Part shown: one piece after another, positions 2,425 through 10,706 of the stretch
Numbering within the stretch: the first letter of the stretch is position 1
How the letters are laid out: each line of letters begins with the position of its first letter
Virus record (IMG/VR): IMGVR_UViG_2711768037_000018
Location: 1-18,616 of that record
Direction: 5' to 3' (one strand)
DNA: 18,616 nucleotides
From: a virus
Lineage: Duplodnaviria > Heunggongvirae > Uroviricota > Caudoviricetes
Notes under the pieces: generated by a model
What the model was told of the DNA's origin: nothing
Databases searched by the model: none
What the model saw: only the letters and a program-made list of their open reading frames with translations
Translations under genes and position numbers: made by a program

Positions 2425-2463
2425 AAAACGCAAAAAGCCCCGAGCTATTAACTCAGGGCTTTA
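2425..2463 (-). terminator. tR'-like intrinsic terminator about 30-60 nt downstream of the pR' start
   Basis: Minus-strand RNA: GCCCUGAG-UUAAUAG-CUCGGGGC (8-bp stem, one G-U) followed by UUUUUGCGUUUU. Confidence 0.6.
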
Positions 2464-5732: not shown

Positions 5733-7169
5733 TCAGAATCCTCCTTTCTTCTTGGACTGCGGTTCCTCACGTTCACGGCGGCGCATTTCAGCAGACTGTT
5801 GGTCTGTGTCATAAATAGCGCCATTTGCCTGAATGCAATACACCGTGCCGGTATTGCCATGACGATTGAGGCGAAGGATTAGTTCGGTTTCACCAGGAGG
5901 AACGCTGTCATCAAAAGCACCTTCACGATGGATCCCCACCCAATAATCGCAATCCTGTTCAATCTGCCCTGTATCTCGTGAGTCACTTGGTAATGGGCGT
6001 TTATTGGTTCGGCTTTCCAGTGCGCGGTTAAGCTGTGTCAGAAGCACAACAACGCAATCAAGCTCTTTGGCAAGGTTCTTCAGTCCTTTGGTGATCATGC
6101 CGTAAGCAAGGTCGTTGCGATCGGCCTTTTCAGCGGTCATTAGTGTCAGGTAATCGACCAGAATCATGCCAACACATCCTTTTTCTCGCTTGATTCGACG
6201 GCTTTCGCTGACGATTTGAGCCAGAGATAATCCCGGCGTGTCGTCGATGTAAAGCAGGTCGATTTCACTCAAGCGATTGGCTGTTTCGATCGCCCTGTTG
6301 AAGTCACCATCGTAATCACCCTGATAGCCGTCATCAGCGTCATTTGTCGCCGGAAGGTAAAAAATATTCGGGTTAACACCTGACTTCTGTCCTACCAGTT
6401 TTTCCAGTATCTGGTCACCTGGCATTTCAAGGCTGAACATCAGAGCGGGCTTTTTCTCATGCACTGCGCAGTTGATTGCCATCTGGCTGTATAGGGTTGT
6501 CTTGCCCATCTTAGGGCGAGCGCCAATGACAAACAGAGAGCCTTTCACCAGGCCTTTCGGTGACAGCATCCTGTCCAGCGATGGGATCCCTGTGCTCATT
6601 CCTCGTTGTTCGCCTGACGGGTCAAATCGCTTCTCAAGGTCGCTAACCCAGTCTTCCATGACCTCACCAAATGAGCGAAGGCCGCGACGCGATCCGGTTT
6701 TTGCATGGTCTGTCAGTTGCGTGAAAATCGCCTGAATAGCTTCGTACTTCTGCGTTGCAGTCATTCCGTTGCGGGAATAGAGCAATTCCGTCGCTTCAGT
6801 CATGCGGTTGATGGCGTAGCGTTCCATTGCGGTTTCACGAACCTGCATTGCATAGGCAACGATGTTTGCTGCGCTTGGCGTGTTCTTTGCGATCTCAGCG
6901 ATATAAGCAAAACCTCCAACAGACGCCGTTAACGATTTGCGCTCCAGTTCATCGAAAAGCGTCAGCCCATCTACTGGCTTTTGCTCCCGGTGCATTCTGG
7001 TTATTTCTTCGAAAAGGATTTTGTGTGGTCGGCTGTAAAATGAATCAGGCTTCAGCATCGCCAGAACTTTCCGGACGCGCTCACTGCTGTCATCATCCAG
7101 AAGCAATCCACCAATCACCGCCTGCTCTGCCTCGATGCTATGGGGCGGCGCATAAAAATTATCGGTCAT
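5733..7169 (-). CDS. Replicative DNA helicase, DnaB family (P22 gene 12-like)
   Basis: About 478 aa from ATG 7167-7169; Walker A GARPKMGKTT, DnaB-like N-terminal domain (SIEAEQAVIGGLL) and RecA-like core; the track start at 7184 is a GTG extension. Confidence 0.9.
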   Translation of the reverse strand: MTDNFYAPPHSIEAEQAVIGGLLLDDDSSERVRKVLAMLKPDSFYSRPHKILFEEITRMHREQKPVDGLTLFDELERKSLTASVGGFAYIAEIAKNTPSAANIVAYAMQVRETAMERYAINRMTEATELLYSRNGMTATQKYEAIQAIFTQLTDHAKTGSRRGLRSFGEVMEDWVSDLEKRFDPSGEQRGMSTGIPSLDRMLSPKGLVKGSLFVIGARPKMGKTTLYSQMAINCAVHEKKPALMFSLEMPGDQILEKLVGQKSGVNPNIFYLPATNDADDGYQGDYDGDFNRAIETANRLSEIDLLYIDDTPGLSLAQIVSESRRIKREKGCVGMILVDYLTLMTAEKADRNDLAYGMITKGLKNLAKELDCVVVLLTQLNRALESRTNKRPLPSDSRDTGQIEQDCDYWVGIHREGAFDDSVPPGETELILRLNRHGNTGTVYCIQANGAIYDTDQQSAEMRRREREEPQSKKKGGF

Positions 7170-8049
7170 CGTGTTCACCCTCACGAACTTTCAGGTAGGT
7201 ATTATCGTTAAGCAGGAAATCAAATCCCTTTTTGTGCCAGACGGTTCCGCGTTGATGGTTTGGGCGCTCTTCGAACATCCATCGGCAATTTTCGCCTACG
7301 TAGCTCAAATAATTTCTCCAGTCCTGCATCGTGAACCCATGCCCGTCAAGCTGGCGGGTTATCACTCCGGCTTTGCGCCAGAACGTTCGGATCTGGTTTT
7401 TACGCTTGTCATTCAGTGCGCGGATTCTTGGCGCTTCAGGAAGGATTTCGTGGTAAGCATCGACAACATCCTGACAGCTAACGGAAGGTTTTTTCTTGTC
7501 AGACTTTTTGTCTGCTGTGGCACTCTCTAATACGTCAGTATTAGAGATATTATTTATATTATTGTTTATGGACAACCGTTGGACAACCGTTGGACAATCT
7601 CCGCTGAGAGCCGCGCCATTACTGGTGTTTGCGTTGGACAACCGTTGGACAACCGTTGGACAATTTTTTGCCTGAAAATCGTCATATTTAACGATTGTAA
7701 ACAGGCTAAATTTCTTCCCCATCGCGCAAATATTAAGCATCCCTTTCGACTCAAAAGTCCGTAATAAGCTCCGAACTTTGTTGTCGGGGATGAATGTTTC
7801 TCTGACCAGCGACGGGCGTCCAGTTATCATCTGACCGCGATCAACAGTTATCGGACCGATATCCGTATTGACGACAGTAGATTCGTGATTAGCCTTGAGG
7901 ATTAAGTGAAGCCAAAGATGTACTGCCTGAGAGTCCTTATAGAGCCTGCTGTCCATAAACTGGCGGTGTATAGAGACATACCCCATACTGGATGCCTCCT
8001 GATGTTGTACAGGGTTATGCCTGTAATCAGCTAACTTAACGACGCCCAT
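7159..8049 (-). CDS. Replication initiation protein (lambda O / P22 gp18 functional analogue) containing the origin iterons; alternative start ATG 7984-7986
   Basis: Lies between cII and the helicase; iteron cluster plus AT-rich tract in the middle of the ORF (translated as repeated CPTVVQRLS), as in lambda ori within O; both candidate ATGs have AGGAG-type SDs. Confidence 0.8.
   Translation of the reverse strand: MGVVKLADYRHNPVQHQEASSMGYVSIHRQFMDSRLYKDSQAVHLWLHLILKANHESTVVNTDIGPITVDRGQMITGRPSLVRETFIPDNKVRSLLRTFESKGMLNICAMGKKFSLFTIVKYDDFQAKNCPTVVQRLSNANTSNGAALSGDCPTVVQRLSINNNINNISNTDVLESATADKKSDKKKPSVSCQDVVDAYHEILPEAPRIRALNDKRKNQIRTFWRKAGVITRQLDGHGFTMQDWRNYLSYVGENCRWMFEERPNHQRGTVWHKKGFDFLLNDNTYLKVREGEHDDR
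7521..7663 (-). repeat. Putative replication origin: two clusters of 11-bp direct repeats (GGACAACCGTT x2.5 each) followed on the gene strand by an AT-rich tract
   Basis: Repeats at 7570-7597 and 7636-7663; AT-rich 7521-7569; arrangement mirrors lambda ori (iterons then AT-rich region inside the initiator gene). Confidence 0.7.
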
Positions 8050-8198
8050 GTTTCACTCCTGCTTTGGCTAGTCTGTAAACACCAACAAGGCGCTCTGCGA
8101 ACGCCCTGTTATTTGCTGCGGCTACCACTAATCCCTCAGGTGAATCAGGGTGTCGAATCTCTTCTTTTTCCTGGTATTTCTTACGACGTTTTGTCATA
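8036..8198 (-). CDS. Hypothetical small basic protein (53 aa), between cII and the initiator gene
   Basis: Hand-translated MTKRRKKYQEKEEIRHPDSPEGLVVAAANNRAFAERLVGVYRLAKAGVKHGRR; AGGAG 5 nt upstream of ATG; no recognised homology. Confidence 0.3.
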
Positions 8199-8231
8199 AT
8201 TACTCCTGTGGATTGATCCAGTCTTTCTACA

Positions 8232-8510
8232 TCAGGCCTCGAAGAATTCGCCGTTCTTCGGGGCTTTTTCTTTTGTCAGCATTCTGGCTACTTTCTTAGC
8301 CAGTTCCGCCAACTCCTCGTCTTCAACACCCCACTCCAGCACAGCCAGAAGCATGGCCATCTTTGGGATAAAGCTGTCTTTCCATCGCGAAATTTGCGAT
8401 TCATTGATCCCTAATGCATCAGCAACCTTTCGCTGACCACGTACAGCAATTCGATTTAGGATGTTGCTTGTAATTGCATTCGCTTTCTTGCGAGTACTTG
8501 TAAGTTGCAT
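8232..8510 (-). CDS. cII: CII transcriptional activator
   Basis: 92 aa from internal ATG: MQLTSTRKKANAITSNILNRIAVRGQRKVADALGINESQISRWKDSFIPKMAMLLAVLEWGV..., aligns with lambda CII (..SQISRWKRDWIPKFSMLLAVLEWGV..). Confidence 0.85.
   Translation of the reverse strand: MQLTSTRKKANAITSNILNRIAVRGQRKVADALGINESQISRWKDSFIPKMAMLLAVLEWGVEDEELAELAKKVARMLTKEKAPKNGEFFEA
8236..8274 (+). terminator. Intrinsic terminator on the strand antisense to the cII 3' end (oop-RNA-like terminator)
   Basis: Plus strand: GCCTCGAAGAA-TTCGCCG-TTCTTCGGGGC (11-bp stem with one G-U) followed by TTTTTCTTTT; sits just inside the cII C-terminal codons, as lambda oop does. Confidence 0.6.
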
Positions 8511-8619: not shown

Positions 8620-8844
8620 TTATGCTGCCTGATTCGGTTTTGGAAACAGGTGTGGCAAATCGGGGCGAATTTCGTAAGCCTTGATCTGCCCTCCAGTGGC
8701 GTTAACGATGGCGGTAACTTTCTCTGGAGAGACCAACCCGCCTTTCAGCCATTTGTGTACTGCTGGCTGCGTTACACCACACTTGTCGGCAAGGCGCTTT
8801 TGGCTACCGACAATTTTCAAGGCTCGTTGAATTACTAAATTCAT
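8620..8844 (-). CDS. cro: Cro-like repressor, YdaS-type HTH (74 aa from third in-frame ATG)
   Basis: HTH segment QKRLADKCGVTQPAVHKWLKG and ...ATGGQIKAYEIRPDL resemble the YdaS/Cro family; divergent from cI across an operator region; AGAGG 7 nt upstream of the chosen ATG. Confidence 0.8.
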   Translation of the reverse strand: MNLVIQRALKIVGSQKRLADKCGVTQPAVHKWLKGGLVSPEKVTAIVNATGGQIKAYEIRPDLPHLFPKPNQAA

Positions 8845-8906: not shown

Positions 8907-8943
8907 TAACCTTTGTTATTTTACTTTGGATAACCGTAGTTAT
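8881..8943. promoter_or_regulatory. OR operator cluster: three 14-bp inverted repeats ATAAC-N4-GTTAT
   Basis: ATAACTCAAGTTAT (8881-8894), ATAACCTTTGTTAT (8906-8919), ATAACCGTAGTTAT (8930-8943), centres about 24 bp apart between divergent cro and cI; pRM-like -10 TAGATT at 8943-8948 precedes the cI ATG by about 7 nt. Confidence 0.65.
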
Positions 8944-8955
8944 AGATTTGTGAGT

Positions 8956-9663
8956 ATGAAAACATTCGCAGAAAGACTAAATGCAGCCATGAGCTCAGCA
9001 GGGGTATCACAATCACAGCTTGCTGACATGGTTGGAATATCTCAGCCAGCCATACAGAAGATGTCGTCCGGTAAAACAAACGGATCTCGCAAGATGGTTG
9101 AATTAGCCAATGCTTTAAAAGTGCGTCCTGAATGGCTTAGTTCTGGTATTGGTGAAATGAGGGATGGTGCACATGAAGAACCATCCAATGTCCGTGAGTC
9201 ATCTTTAAAAGCTGTGGTATGGGAAGACATTAAAAGAAACGATGACGAGTTTGTTGCGTTGCCTCTTCTTAACGTTTCGCTTTCAGCTGGAAGCGGTAGC
9301 TGCGAGCTAGAGGAATCATCGGAGTTCTCTTTGGTTTTCAGAAAGCACTATCTGAAAAAGATGGGAGTATCAGAAAGATCAGCCAAGCTAGTTAGGGTTG
9401 TAGGGCAAAGCATGGAACCAACGCTTCACGATGGCGATGTTGTTGGTGTTAACACGCAAGATACCACAATCAGAGATGGTAAAACCTACGCTATTTGCCA
9501 GTCTGATTTGTTACGAGTAAAAACATTAATCGCCACCCCTACATCGGTGATAATCAGATCAATAAATCGCGAAGAGTACCCGGATGAAGTAATGGATAGA
9601 GATGAATTTCATGAAACCGTAAGGATTATTGGCAGAGTATTCTGGTCGTCTCATAGTTGGTAA
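8956..9663 (+). CDS. cI: CI-type prophage repressor (N-terminal HTH + C-terminal S24 LexA-like autopeptidase domain)
   Basis: 235 aa from ATG 8956 (track start 8926 is a TTG extension); HTH region SQSQLADMVGISQPAIQKM; C-terminal GQSMEPT (catalytic Ser) and downstream Lys; apparently leaderless start like lambda cI from pRM. Confidence 0.9.
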   Translation: MKTFAERLNAAMSSAGVSQSQLADMVGISQPAIQKMSSGKTNGSRKMVELANALKVRPEWLSSGIGEMRDGAHEEPSNVRESSLKAVVWEDIKRNDDEFVALPLLNVSLSAGSGSCELEESSEFSLVFRKHYLKKMGVSERSAKLVRVVGQSMEPTLHDGDVVGVNTQDTTIRDGKTYAICQSDLLRVKTLIATPTSVIIRSINREEYPDEVMDRDEFHETVRIIGRVFWSSHSW

Positions 9664-9703: not shown

Positions 9704-10000
9704 ATGGAATTTCTGATAGTTTTTGTTGTTGTTTTGGTCATCATTCTTTTTGTTTTGCTAAGCATTAGCAAAAAGCTATCTCAAATGATTGAACATAGCT
9801 CTAATCGCGCAAAAGAAGAAGAGCATCTAATTGATATAAAAGAGATTCTCTCTGATATAAAAATCACATTAGATGAAATAAAATACACAACAGATCTAAT
9901 TGAACAGTATAAAATACCAACCCCAAACGAGAGAAAAGCAATAGATCAATATCGTATTGACTTAGAAATCGACGAAATGCTAAGCAAAAGAAAAGACTAA
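9704..10000 (+). CDS. Hypothetical single-pass membrane protein (98 aa), AT-rich, co-oriented directly downstream of cI
   Basis: N-terminal TM helix EFLIVFVVVLVIILFVLLSI then charged helical region; GGAGGG SD; strongly AT-rich codon usage compared with neighbours; followed by an intrinsic terminator. Confidence 0.7.
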   Translation: MEFLIVFVVVLVIILFVLLSISKKLSQMIEHSSNRAKEEEHLIDIKEILSDIKITLDEIKYTTDLIEQYKIPTPNERKAIDQYRIDLEIDEMLSKRKD

Positions 10001-10004
10001 AAAC

Positions 10005-10034
10005 ACCCGGCCTCAGCGCCGGGTTTTCTTTTCC
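10005..10034 (+). terminator. Intrinsic terminator ending the cI transcription unit
   Basis: CCCGGC-CTCAGC-GCCGGG hairpin followed by TTTTCTTTTCC. Confidence 0.7.
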
Positions 10035-10433: not shown

Positions 10434-10706
10434 ATGACAGTAGTCATTACATATCTGGCTGACGATAACGCCAGAAATCGCCGCAGAGCACGCAGACAGG
10501 CTCAACGTGAACAGGCAATGCAAGAGCAGCGACTGGCACGAAAAATTGCGCTAAAGCTCTCTGGTTGCGTCAGAGCAGATAAAGCAGCATCACTCGGAAG
10601 CCTTCGCTGCAAGAAGGCAGATGAATGCAGTGGAAGTATTTGCCTGCCAAACGTAGCCATTTACGCGGCAGGCTACCGGAAATCAAAACAACTGACGGCG
10701 AGGTAA
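10434..10706 (+). CDS. N: N-type antitermination protein (P22 gene 24-like)
   Basis: 90 aa; arginine-rich motif DNARNRRRARRQAQREQ; C-terminus LPNVAIYAAGYRKSKQLTAR resembles the P22 gp24 C-terminus as recalled; GGAGG SD. Confidence 0.85.
   Translation: MTVVITYLADDNARNRRRARRQAQREQAMQEQRLARKIALKLSGCVRADKAASLGSLRCKKADECSGSICLPNVAIYAAGYRKSKQLTAR

What the first reader, a model, noticed from the sequence alone, without database searches (positions are those of the whole stretch)
8199..8274. oop-like antisense RNA overlapping the 3' end of cII
A very strong plus-strand terminator (11-bp stem plus T-run) sits inside the last codons of cII on the antisense strand, preceded by a possible -10 CATAAT at 8195-8200. 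This is the arrangement of lambda oop RNA, which promotes cII mRNA decay. No gene is annotated for it in the track.
Basis: partly seen in the sequence, partly recalled or inferred. Interest (0 to 1): 0.45.

Follow-up and report, generated by a model that had tools for sequence, protein, structure and literature searches.

The report
Unannotated oop antisense RNA gene
This is the P22-type version of the oop antisense RNA of lambda-like phages, a roughly 65-base RNA made opposite the end of the lysogeny gene cII; it is real but unannotated, and it is textbook biology rather than a discovery.

Summary
A plus-strand hairpin at 8234-8266 (13-14 pairs, not 11) with a T-run at 8265-8274 is the strongest terminator-like site in the window. 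It lies inside the last 11 codons of a CII-family gene on the minus strand (8232-8510). CATAAT is at 8195-8200, preceded by TG, giving an extended -10.

The interpretation also holds. A 33-nt block (8190-8222) is nearly identical to lambda pO plus the first bases of oop, and lambda's oop start aligns to G8208. The rest matches P22 oop, whose 63-nt RNA has been seen by small-RNA sequencing. All 85 untruncated loci found through the CII protein carry the same promoter block and a terminator.

Both helices keep pairing through changes on both sides, and both fold better on the plus strand. The predicted RNA is 8208/8211 to about 8273, some 63-66 nt. It most likely pairs with the pR transcript and triggers RNase III-dependent loss of cII mRNA, favouring lysis; that step is inferred from lambda.

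The cII-oop-orf-O layout in lambdoid phages is already published. The gene is unannotated only because Rfam has no oop model. Interest is low.

The parts
8172..8177 (+). Weak -35-like hexamer TGGTAT, 17 bp upstream of the -10 element
   Evidence: Only 2 of 6 matches to TTGACA. The same position reads T[TG]G[TA][AC]N in front of lambda O (TTGAGT), P22 orf48 (TGGTCA) and several different genes downstream of cII in Pantoea, Kalamiella and Enterobacter prophages. The P22-pbi record starts its annotated promoter at the equivalent hexamer.
8192..8200 (+). pO promoter, extended -10 element TGTCATAAT. The CAT at 8195-8197 is the complement of the ATG of the 53-aa gene on the other strand.
   Evidence: Identical to lambda TGTCATAAT. 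[quoted passage not shown] CATAAT is present in 85 of 85 untruncated CII-family loci and TG in 83 of them.
8190..8222 (.). 33-bp block conserved among lambdoid phages. It holds the pO -10 element, the ribosome-binding site and start codon of the downstream gene, and the first 15 nt of oop.
   Evidence: 30 of 33 positions identical to lambda. It is annotated as 'bsq5; boundary sequence' in the Sf6 record. BLAST hits restricted to this block occur in Stx, Klebsiella and Yersinia phages. It is described in PMC3349717.
8206..8221 (.). CTG-N10-CAG palindrome core across the transcription start, a LexA-box-like site
   Evidence: Read directly from the sequence: CTGTGGATTGATCCAG. It matches the LexA consensus TACTGTATATATATACAGTA at 13 of 20 positions, against 15 of 20 for lambda. 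A LexA binding sequence within lambda oop-pO is cited in PMC5869508. Binding here is untested.
8208..8273 (+). Predicted oop RNA of about 63-66 nt. The 5' end is G8208 by lambda homology or G8211 by the P22 RNA-seq end. The 3' end falls in the U-run, about 8271-8274.
   Evidence: Lambda +1 (38675) aligns to 8208. The P22 63-nt RNA aligns to 8211-8273, with 53 of 66 alignment columns identical. No ORF with both a start and a stop lies inside the RNA.
8208..8230 (+). 5' stem-loop. Nt 1-5 (GUGGA) pair with nt 19-23 (UCUAC). It lies in the intergenic spacer between cII and the 53-aa gene.
   Evidence: 100% of cells paired across 13 distinct sequences. Two of the 5 pairs change on both sides. 0 of 500 shuffles reach the observed covariation score, and every slid register is worse. 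Variants are GUGAA/UUCGC and GUAUG/CAUAC.
8234..8274 (+). Intrinsic terminator tO: a 14-bp stem (8234-8247 with 8253-8266), loop TCGCC, then the U-run TTTTTCTTTT
   Evidence: Top-ranked terminator in the window; -19.5 kcal/mol. Relatives keep the stem through changes on both sides at outer pairs 2, 5 and 8, and P22-type phages replace the inner five pairs wholesale. The stem is weaker on the opposite strand, -12.6 kcal/mol.
8232..8510 (-). cII, the target gene. Its last 41-42 nt, stop codon included, are complementary to the RNA.
   Evidence: Pfam Phage_CII PF05269, E = 3.8e-42, covering 1-91 of 91 profile positions. Related phage records name the matching gene cII or CII-like transcriptional activator.
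8036..8197 (-). 53-aa gene between cII and the O-like gene (HK97 gp53 / P22 orf48 family). Its ribosome-binding site (AGGAG, complement of 8203-8207) abuts the oop start, and its first codons carry the pO promoter.
   Evidence: phrog_1331, E = 1.4e-37, function unknown. Sf6 gene 42 and ES18 gp58 are annotated as HK97 gene 53 homologs. PMC3349717 notes that lambda lacks this gene between oop and O.

Best explanation
The element is the oop gene (pO promoter, oop, tO terminator) of a P22/Sf6/HK620-like lambdoid phage or prophage.

Proposed mechanism, step by step:
1. RNA polymerase starts at an extended -10 promoter (TGTCATAAT, 8192-8200). This promoter sits on top of the translation start of the 53-aa gene encoded on the other strand.
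2. Transcription begins at about 8208-8211 and runs on the plus strand, against the pR operon.
3. It stops at the intrinsic terminator 8234-8274. The product is a non-coding RNA of about 63-66 nt with a small 5' stem-loop and a 14-bp terminator hairpin.
4. The RNA is perfectly complementary to the pR transcript across the last ~41 nt of cII and the 24-nt spacer that follows it.
5. By analogy with lambda OOP, the RNA-mRNA duplex is cut by RNase III, the cII part of the message is degraded, less CII is made, and the lysis-lysogeny decision shifts toward lysis.
6. Convergent firing of pO against pR may also dampen pR transcription entering the O-like gene and its origin.

Basis of each step: the sequence elements, their homology, their conservation and their covariation are shown here. 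Expression is shown only in the relatives P22, BTP1 and lambda. RNase III dependence, the effect on CII and any LexA control are inferred for this phage.
For: Anatomy:
- The terminator is the best in the window.
- The RNA folds at -27.2 kcal/mol, z = -4.9.
- The target gene is a full-length CII-family gene.

Homology:
- The 33-nt pO/oop block matches lambda at 30 of 33 positions, and lambda +1 aligns to 8208.
- The element is 82.6% identical to P22 over 113 nt, where the P22-pbi record annotates a promoter and a terminator.

Expression in relatives:
- A 63-nt P22 oop RNA was sequenced; its first 30 nt are identical to window 8211-8240.
- An OOP RNA was annotated in the BTP1 prophage transcriptome.

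Conservation without DNA-pattern bias:
- 85 of 85 untruncated loci retrieved through the CII protein have CATAAT, the block and a terminator with a U-tail.
- These include Pantoea, Kalamiella and Enterobacter prophages with 40-83% CII identity.

Structure:
- The 5' stem is 100% paired with changes on both sides; 0 of 500 shuffles reach the observed score.
- The terminator stem keeps pairing through changes on both sides at three outer pairs and a wholesale exchange of the inner five.
- G-U pairs make both helices specific to the plus strand: 22 of 22 pairs against 17 of 22 on the mRNA strand, and -27.2 against -17.9 kcal/mol.

Mechanism in lambda:
- RNase III-dependent action on cII mRNA.
- Mutations in the pO -10 element abolish OOP.
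Against: - No transcript data exist for this particular sequence.
- The -35 element is poor (TGGTAT, 2 of 6), so promoter strength rests on the extended -10.
- The conserved block also carries the ribosome-binding site and start codon of the downstream gene, and it is a known recombination boundary between phage modules. Its conservation is therefore not by itself proof of a promoter.
- The terminator lies in coding sequence, so part of its variation is tied to changes at the CII C-terminus.
- In lambda the physiological weight of OOP is debated. pO and oop mutants did not restore CII activity after SOS induction, and the mapped cleavage sites lie outside cII.
- The RNA-seq 5' end in P22 is 3 nt downstream of the lambda-equivalent start, so the exact +1 is uncertain.
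Confidence: 0.88

Rival explanations
1. The promoter matters more than the RNA. pO fires against pR, and the collision of polymerases or the resulting change in DNA topology tunes how much pR transcription reaches the O-like gene and its origin iterons (7569-7664). The short RNA is mostly a by-product, kept short by tO. This reading is not exclusive with the antisense role.
For: - For lambda, a pO -10 mutation lowers plasmid copy number and raises pR read-through. Raising the OOP RNA level several-fold through pcnB had no effect on copy number (PMC3985674).
- The geometry is the same here: pO lies between cII and the replication genes, and origin-like iterons lie about 550 bp away in the O-like gene.
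- The -35 position is conserved across different downstream genes.
Against: - The RNA body carries structure-preserving covariation in a 5' stem that is not needed just to terminate.
- Randomising oop nt 2-46 in lambda abolished its antisense and inhibition phenotypes.
- Here the replication module is of the O plus DnaB-helicase type rather than lambda O/P, so the lambda plasmid results may not transfer.
Confidence: 0.2
2. There is no dedicated RNA gene. The 33-bp block is conserved because it is the translation start region of the downstream gene and a recombination joint between phage modules. [quoted passage not shown]
For: - The Sf6 record calls 8190-8222 a 'boundary sequence'.
- BLAST hits restricted to this block join different cII types to different downstream genes.
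- The block contains AGGAG and ATG on the minus strand.
- A lambda/P22 hybrid phage crossed over inside it.
Against: - An RNA starting a few bases after the -10 element and ending in the U-run was sequenced in P22 and annotated in BTP1.
- Both helices contain G-U pairs that become C-A mismatches on the mRNA strand, which folds 9 kcal/mol worse.
- No T-run follows the hairpin on the minus strand.
- Mutations in the lambda -10 element abolish OOP.
Confidence: 0.04
3. The short leftward transcript primes leftward DNA synthesis from the nearby origin. This is the original 1970s idea for lambda oop.
For: The RNA lies close to and points away from the origin iterons in the O-like gene. The proposal is historical and is cited in PMC3985674.
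Against: For lambda, DnaG primase suffices and oop is dispensable for replication in vitro. The primer idea is described as unlikely (PMC3985674; PMC12197685).
Confidence: 0.02

Closest known systems
Phage P22 oop RNA (pO-oop-tO antisense to c1; Backhaus and Petri 1984; P22C-oop in PMC13397905) and OOP of prophage BTP1 (PMC7067206)
   Same: [quoted passage not shown]
- Same size class, about 63-66 nt.
- The first 30 sequenced nucleotides of the P22 RNA are identical to window 8211-8240.
- Same 5' stem, a 14-bp terminator and the same U-run.
- -10 hexamer identical, -35-like hexamer at the same position but different (TGGTCA in P22, TGGTAT here; see under differences).
   Different: - The terminator stem sequence differs. 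The inner five pairs are exchanged, outer pair 8 is G-C instead of A-U, and the loop is 5 nt rather than the 4 nt predicted for P22.
- This reflects a different allele of the CII C-terminus, the Sf6/HK620 type.
- The -35 is weaker here (TGGTAT against TGGTCA) and the extended -10 reads TGT rather than TGG.
Phage lambda OOP RNA (77 nt, pO, tO; Krinke and Wulff 1987, 1990)
   Same: - Same promoter, TGTCATAAT overlapping the start codon of the next gene.
- Same first ~15 nt (GUnGAUnGAUCCAGU).
- Same CTG-N10-CAG core over the start site.
- Same placement of the terminator inside the 3' end of cII.
- Same two-hairpin layout.
   Different: - Lambda OOP is 77 nt, overlaps cII by 55 nt (stop codon included) and has a long 5' stem-loop (AUCCAG/CUGGAU).
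- This RNA is about 12 nt shorter, overlaps cII by about 41 nt and has only a 5-bp 5' stem.
- Beyond nt 15 the sequences are not alignable.
- In lambda the downstream gene is O itself. Here a 53-aa gene intervenes.
Other phage cis-antisense RNAs at decision genes (P22 sar against ant, lambda aQ against Q, P22 sas against sieB)
   Same: Short, constitutive or conditionally made RNAs fully complementary to a regulatory phage mRNA.
   Different: They have different loci, targets and sequences. sar blocks translation initiation, whereas oop acts at the 3' end of its target through duplex cleavage.

Membership tests
lambdoid oop (pO-oop-tO) cis-antisense RNA | Lies antisense to the 3' end of a CII-family gene and spans the spacer to the next gene of the pR operon | tested here: met
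   cII at 8232-8510 (-) matches PF05269 at E = 3.8e-42. The RNA at 8208-8273 (+) covers 24 nt of spacer and about 41 nt of cII.
lambdoid oop (pO-oop-tO) cis-antisense RNA | Has its own promoter pO, homologous to lambda pO, with a -10 CATAAT element overlapping the start codon of the downstream gene | tested here: met
   TGTCATAAT is identical to lambda, and the 33-nt block matches at 30 of 33 positions. It is present in 85 of 85 CII-family loci. Promoter activity itself was not measured.
lambdoid oop (pO-oop-tO) cis-antisense RNA | Has an intrinsic terminator (tO) inside the cII coding region on the antisense strand | tested here: met
   A 14-bp stem plus U-run at 8234-8274, the best terminator in the window. 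It is conserved with compensatory changes and is specific to the plus strand.
lambdoid oop (pO-oop-tO) cis-antisense RNA | Short (about 60-80 nt) and non-coding | tested here: met
   Predicted length is 63-66 nt. No ORF with both a start and a stop lies inside it.
lambdoid oop (pO-oop-tO) cis-antisense RNA | Sequence homology of the RNA body to a characterised oop | tested here: met
   53 of 66 alignment columns are identical to the sequenced P22 oop RNA, and the first 30 nt are identical. Only nt 1-15 align with lambda. Rfam has no oop model, so no covariance-model test was possible.
lambdoid oop (pO-oop-tO) cis-antisense RNA | The transcript is actually made | not testable with these tools
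   Shown for P22, BTP1 and lambda. No expression data exist for this window.
lambdoid oop (pO-oop-tO) cis-antisense RNA | Lowers cII expression through RNase III-dependent processing of the duplex | not testable with these tools
   Documented for lambda only. Here the perfect 63-66-bp complementarity makes it plausible.
LexA-regulated (SOS) promoters | A LexA box (CTG-N10-CAG within a 20-nt palindrome close to TACTGTATATATATACAGTA) overlapping the promoter or the start site | tested here: inconclusive
   The CTG-N10-CAG core is present at 8206-8221, but only 13 of 20 positions match the consensus, against 15 of 20 for lambda. A LexA site in lambda oop-pO is cited in PMC5869508. Binding was not tested.

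The most novel reading that the evidence does not exclude
Because the first ~15-30 nt of oop and the 33-bp block are shared by heteroimmune lambdoid phages, OOP made by a resident prophage could pair with the cII-to-next-gene junction of the pR transcript of a different incoming or co-resident lambdoid phage. That would be a cross-phage antisense signal that pushes rivals toward lysis or interferes with their replication. The covarying short 5' stem of the P22-type RNA would be the element that presents this shared seed. Nothing here tests this. It is only not excluded. Plasmid-borne lambda OOP is known to channel lambda/P22 and lambda imm21 hybrid phages into lytic growth.
Probability: 0.08. 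Interest if true: 0.45.

Novelty: already known. Interest (0 to 1): 0.12.

Why it matters
The practical value is in annotation. The gene is missed by pipelines because Rfam has no oop family. RefSeq lists only 'lambda phage CII family protein | hypothetical protein' at identical copies, and 965 of 5426 complete E. coli genomes hold a match to this 151-nt stretch. A covariance model built from the lambda-type and P22-type variants collected here would let oop be annotated routinely in prophages.

Biologically it adds nothing unexpected. It confirms that the P22/Sf6/HK620-type CII allele carries its own co-evolved tO stem and a short covarying 5' stem.

Tried and rejected
- Rfam at gathering thresholds on the whole window gave no hit. 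A permissive search of 8100-8400 gave only chance-level hits (ctRNA_p42d at 19 bits against a threshold of 50; sX13 at 18 bits), and I rejected them.
- The first MAFFT alignment of window against lambda over 150 nt was out of register. I replaced it with a shorter, anchored alignment.
- MAFFT would not place the one-base length difference between window-type and P22-type hairpins in the loop. I therefore tabulated the terminator pairs from individual folds in a script instead of using count of structure pairs. Only the 5' stem was counted formally.
- The lambda RefSeq and J02459 records as held here do not annotate oop. The lambda coordinates 38675-38599 come from my own knowledge and are consistent with the 77-nt fold and with PMC3349717.
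- The supplementary files held for the BTP1 paper contain no OOP coordinates.
- A small peptide encoded on the RNA is rejected. Frame 1 stops after two codons, and the other two frames have no stop inside the RNA and no ribosome-binding site.
- A minus-strand terminator for the pR transcript is rejected. No T-run follows the hairpin on that strand, and the hairpin is 7 kcal/mol weaker there.
- The sigma-70 scan did not list pO because the -35 element is too weak for its 9-of-12 rule.

Full report
**Context**

The window is the early region of a mosaic lambdoid phage or prophage of E. coli, of the P22, Sf6 or HK620 type, with the pR operon on the minus strand. Its parts are:
- cI (8926-9663, +), with HTH and Peptidase_S24 domains;
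- a cro-like gene (about 8620-8844, -);
- cII (8232-8510, -), matching Pfam Phage_CII at E = 3.8e-42 over the whole profile;
- a 53-aa gene of the HK97 gp53 / P22 orf48 family (8036-8197, -; phrog_1331);
- an O-like initiator (7159-8049, -; phrog_345);
- a DnaB-type helicase (5733-7184, -).

The best whole-window matches are Escherichia phages vB_EcoP-683R2, mEpX2, Kapi1 and HK620, at 45-59% coverage and about 95-96% identity.

**The observation**

- The plus strand carries AGGCCTCGAAGAAT-TCGCC-GTTCTTCGGGGCTT at 8234-8266, followed by TTTTTCTTTT at 8265-8274.
- It is the top-ranked terminator-like site of the 39 found in the window.
- The stem has 14 pairs counting G-U, not 11. The isolated hairpin folds at -19.5 kcal/mol (z = -3.9). 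The 67-nt stretch 8208-8274 folds at -27.2 kcal/mol (z = -4.9), with 0 of 200 shuffles as good.
- CATAAT is at 8195-8200 and is preceded by TG, giving TGTCATAAT, an extended -10 element. As a bare motif it is not significant: 2 matches in the window against 0.78 expected.

**What it is**

- Homology to lambda. The lambda sequence read from NC_001416 shows tttgtcataatgactcctgttgatagatccagt. The window has tttgtcataattactcctgtggattgatccagt at 8190-8222, identical at 30 of 33 positions. The 5' G of the 77-nt lambda OOP RNA (lambda 38675, from my own knowledge, consistent with the fold) aligns with G8208, seven bases after the -10 element.
- Prior description. [quoted passage not shown] That is the arrangement seen here.
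- Homology to P22. Beyond nt 15 the window no longer resembles lambda but matches P22, at 82.6% identity over 113 nt. The P22-pbi GenBank record annotates a promoter and a terminator 'homologous with phage lambda' at the corresponding positions.
- Transcript evidence in relatives. A 2026 small-RNA-seq study of P22 infection recovered a 63-nt 'P22C-oop' RNA (PMC13397905). Its first 30 nt are identical to window 8211-8240, and 53 of 66 alignment columns are identical overall. An OOP RNA was also annotated in the transcriptome of the P22-like prophage BTP1 (PMC7067206).

**Conservation**

- DNA-pattern scan. A scan of IMG/VR for the block returned at least 120 contigs. Downstream of the block there are two classes. 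The lambda type is about 77 nt, with at least four different terminator stems. The P22 type is about 65 nt and includes the window's exact sequence.
- Protein-based retrieval. Loci were also retrieved through the CII protein, which does not presuppose the DNA block. All 85 untruncated loci of the 88 retrieved carry CATAAT, the block and a hairpin with a U-tail, and 83 have the TG. They include prophages of Pantoea conspicua, Pantoea eucrina, Kalamiella and Enterobacter with 40-83% CII identity.
- The -35 position. With a 17-bp spacer it reads T[TG]G[TA][AC]N in front of lambda O (TTGAGT), P22 orf48 (TGGTCA), the window's 53-aa gene (TGGTAT) and several different genes downstream of cII (TTGTAA, TTGTAC, TGGAAT). 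It is weak in the window, at 2 of 6.

**Structure**

- 5' stem. In an alignment of 13 distinct P22-type sequences, nt 1-5 pair with nt 19-23 in every sequence. The variants are GUGGA/UCUAC, GUGAA/UUCGC and GUAUG/CAUAC. Two of the five pairs change on both sides, 0 of 500 shuffles reach the covariation score, and all slid registers do worse. This stem lies in the non-coding spacer.
- Terminator stem. It keeps pairing through changes on both sides at outer pair 2 (G-U to C-G), pair 5 (C-G to G-C) and pair 8 (G-C to A-U). The inner five pairs are exchanged completely between the window type and the P22 type.
- Strand specificity. Both helices contain G-U pairs that become C-A mismatches on the mRNA strand: 22 of 22 pairs on the plus strand against 17 of 22 on the minus strand in the window. 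The energies are -27.2 against -17.9 kcal/mol. The structure therefore belongs to the plus-strand RNA.

**Mechanism**

- Shown here: the promoter-like element, the start-site homology, the terminator, their conservation and the strand-specific structure.
- Shown in relatives: the RNA exists in P22, BTP1 and lambda. Destroying the lambda -10 element (ATTAT to GCGCG, or a point mutation) abolishes OOP.
- Inferred for this phage: the 63-66-nt RNA pairs with the pR transcript over the last ~41 nt of cII and the 24-nt spacer, ending one base short of the ribosome-binding site of the 53-aa gene. RNase III cuts the duplex, and the cII message is then degraded, lowering CII and favouring lysis. This is the lambda mechanism of Krinke and Wulff as summarised.
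- A second, non-exclusive role is interference between pO and pR, which tunes transcription into the origin region. This is argued for lambda in PMC3985674. Origin-like iterons lie at 7569-7664.
- A CTG-N10-CAG core (8206-8221) spans the start site, as in lambda, where a LexA site in oop-pO has been reported. The match to the LexA consensus is only 13 of 20, so SOS control here is a possibility and not a finding.
- Caveat: in lambda, pO and oop mutants did not restore CII activity after SOS induction. The physiological weight of OOP is modest even in the model system.

**Comparison with what is known, and novelty**

The element meets every sequence-level defining feature of the lambdoid oop gene. 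It is closest to P22 oop, from which it differs in the terminator stem sequence, in the loop size (5 nt, against the 4 nt predicted for P22) and in a weaker -35. It differs from lambda OOP in three ways: it is about 12 nt shorter, it has a much smaller 5' stem-loop, and it lies next to a 53-aa gene rather than O.

Expression and RNase III dependence could not be tested. Nothing about it is unexpected, and the organisation is already described in the literature. It is unannotated for two reasons. Rfam has no oop family, and genome records label the flanking genes only; the Sf6 record calls the block a 'boundary sequence'.

**Verdict**

The element is already known, and interest is low (0.12).

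Noticed in passing
window 7569-7598 and 7635-7664: Two clusters of three tandem 11-bp repeats (TGGACAACCGT) lie inside the O-like gene. They are the presumed origin iterons, and the Sf6, HK620 and ES18 records annotate a replication origin at the equivalent place.
   Followed up: partly
window 9704-10000 (+) and 10005-10024: A 98-aa ORF with a hydrophobic N-terminus lies in a stretch of only 33% G+C between cI and the N-like gene. A hairpin that scores as a terminator on both strands follows it. This is the position where lambda has rex and P22 has sieB, so it may be an exclusion or accessory gene. It matches phrog_18389, function unknown.
   Followed up: partly
window 8172-8177 and equivalent positions in L004, L006, L130-L134: The -35 position of pO lies in codons 8-9 of whatever gene follows cII. 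It keeps the form T[TG]G[TA][AC]N even when the downstream gene is different (lambda O, orf48/gp53-like, others). This hints at selection on the DNA rather than on the protein.
   Followed up: partly
window 8207-8215: TGTGGATTG matches the complement of the DnaA-box consensus (TGTGNATAA) at 7 of 9 positions, just downstream of pO. DnaA-protected sites downstream of pO are reported for lambda (PMC3985674). Their equivalence to this site was not checked.
   Followed up: no
L127 (JAEZIN010000021.1, labelled 'MAG: Bacillota bacterium'): A 10.4-kb contig binned as Bacillota carries a cII gene 99% identical to the window, with the identical oop region. It is most likely an enterobacterial prophage contig that was mis-binned or is a contaminant.
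   Followed up: no
window 8488-8501: TTGCgagtacTTGT lies at the 5' end of cII. It is the CII/C1 binding site of the pRE promoter according to the Sf6 and HK620 records. pRE therefore fires on the same strand as oop, about 215 nt downstream of tO.
   Followed up: no
window 10434-10706 (+): A 90-aa ORF with an arginine-rich motif (NARNRRRARRQAQ) matches N-like antitermination proteins (phrog_271, E = 4e-34).
   Followed up: partly
window 8620-8844 (-): The cro-position gene scores best against Pfam 'YdaS_toxin' (E = 1e-17) and only weakly against P22_Cro. This is a naming oddity of the family, not evidence for a toxin.
   Followed up: no
window 2434-2462 (-): The second strongest terminator-like hairpin in the window (13 pairs, AAAGCCCTGAG...CTCGGGGCTTT plus a T-run) lies on the minus strand downstream of the replication and nin-like genes. 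It was not examined.
   Followed up: no
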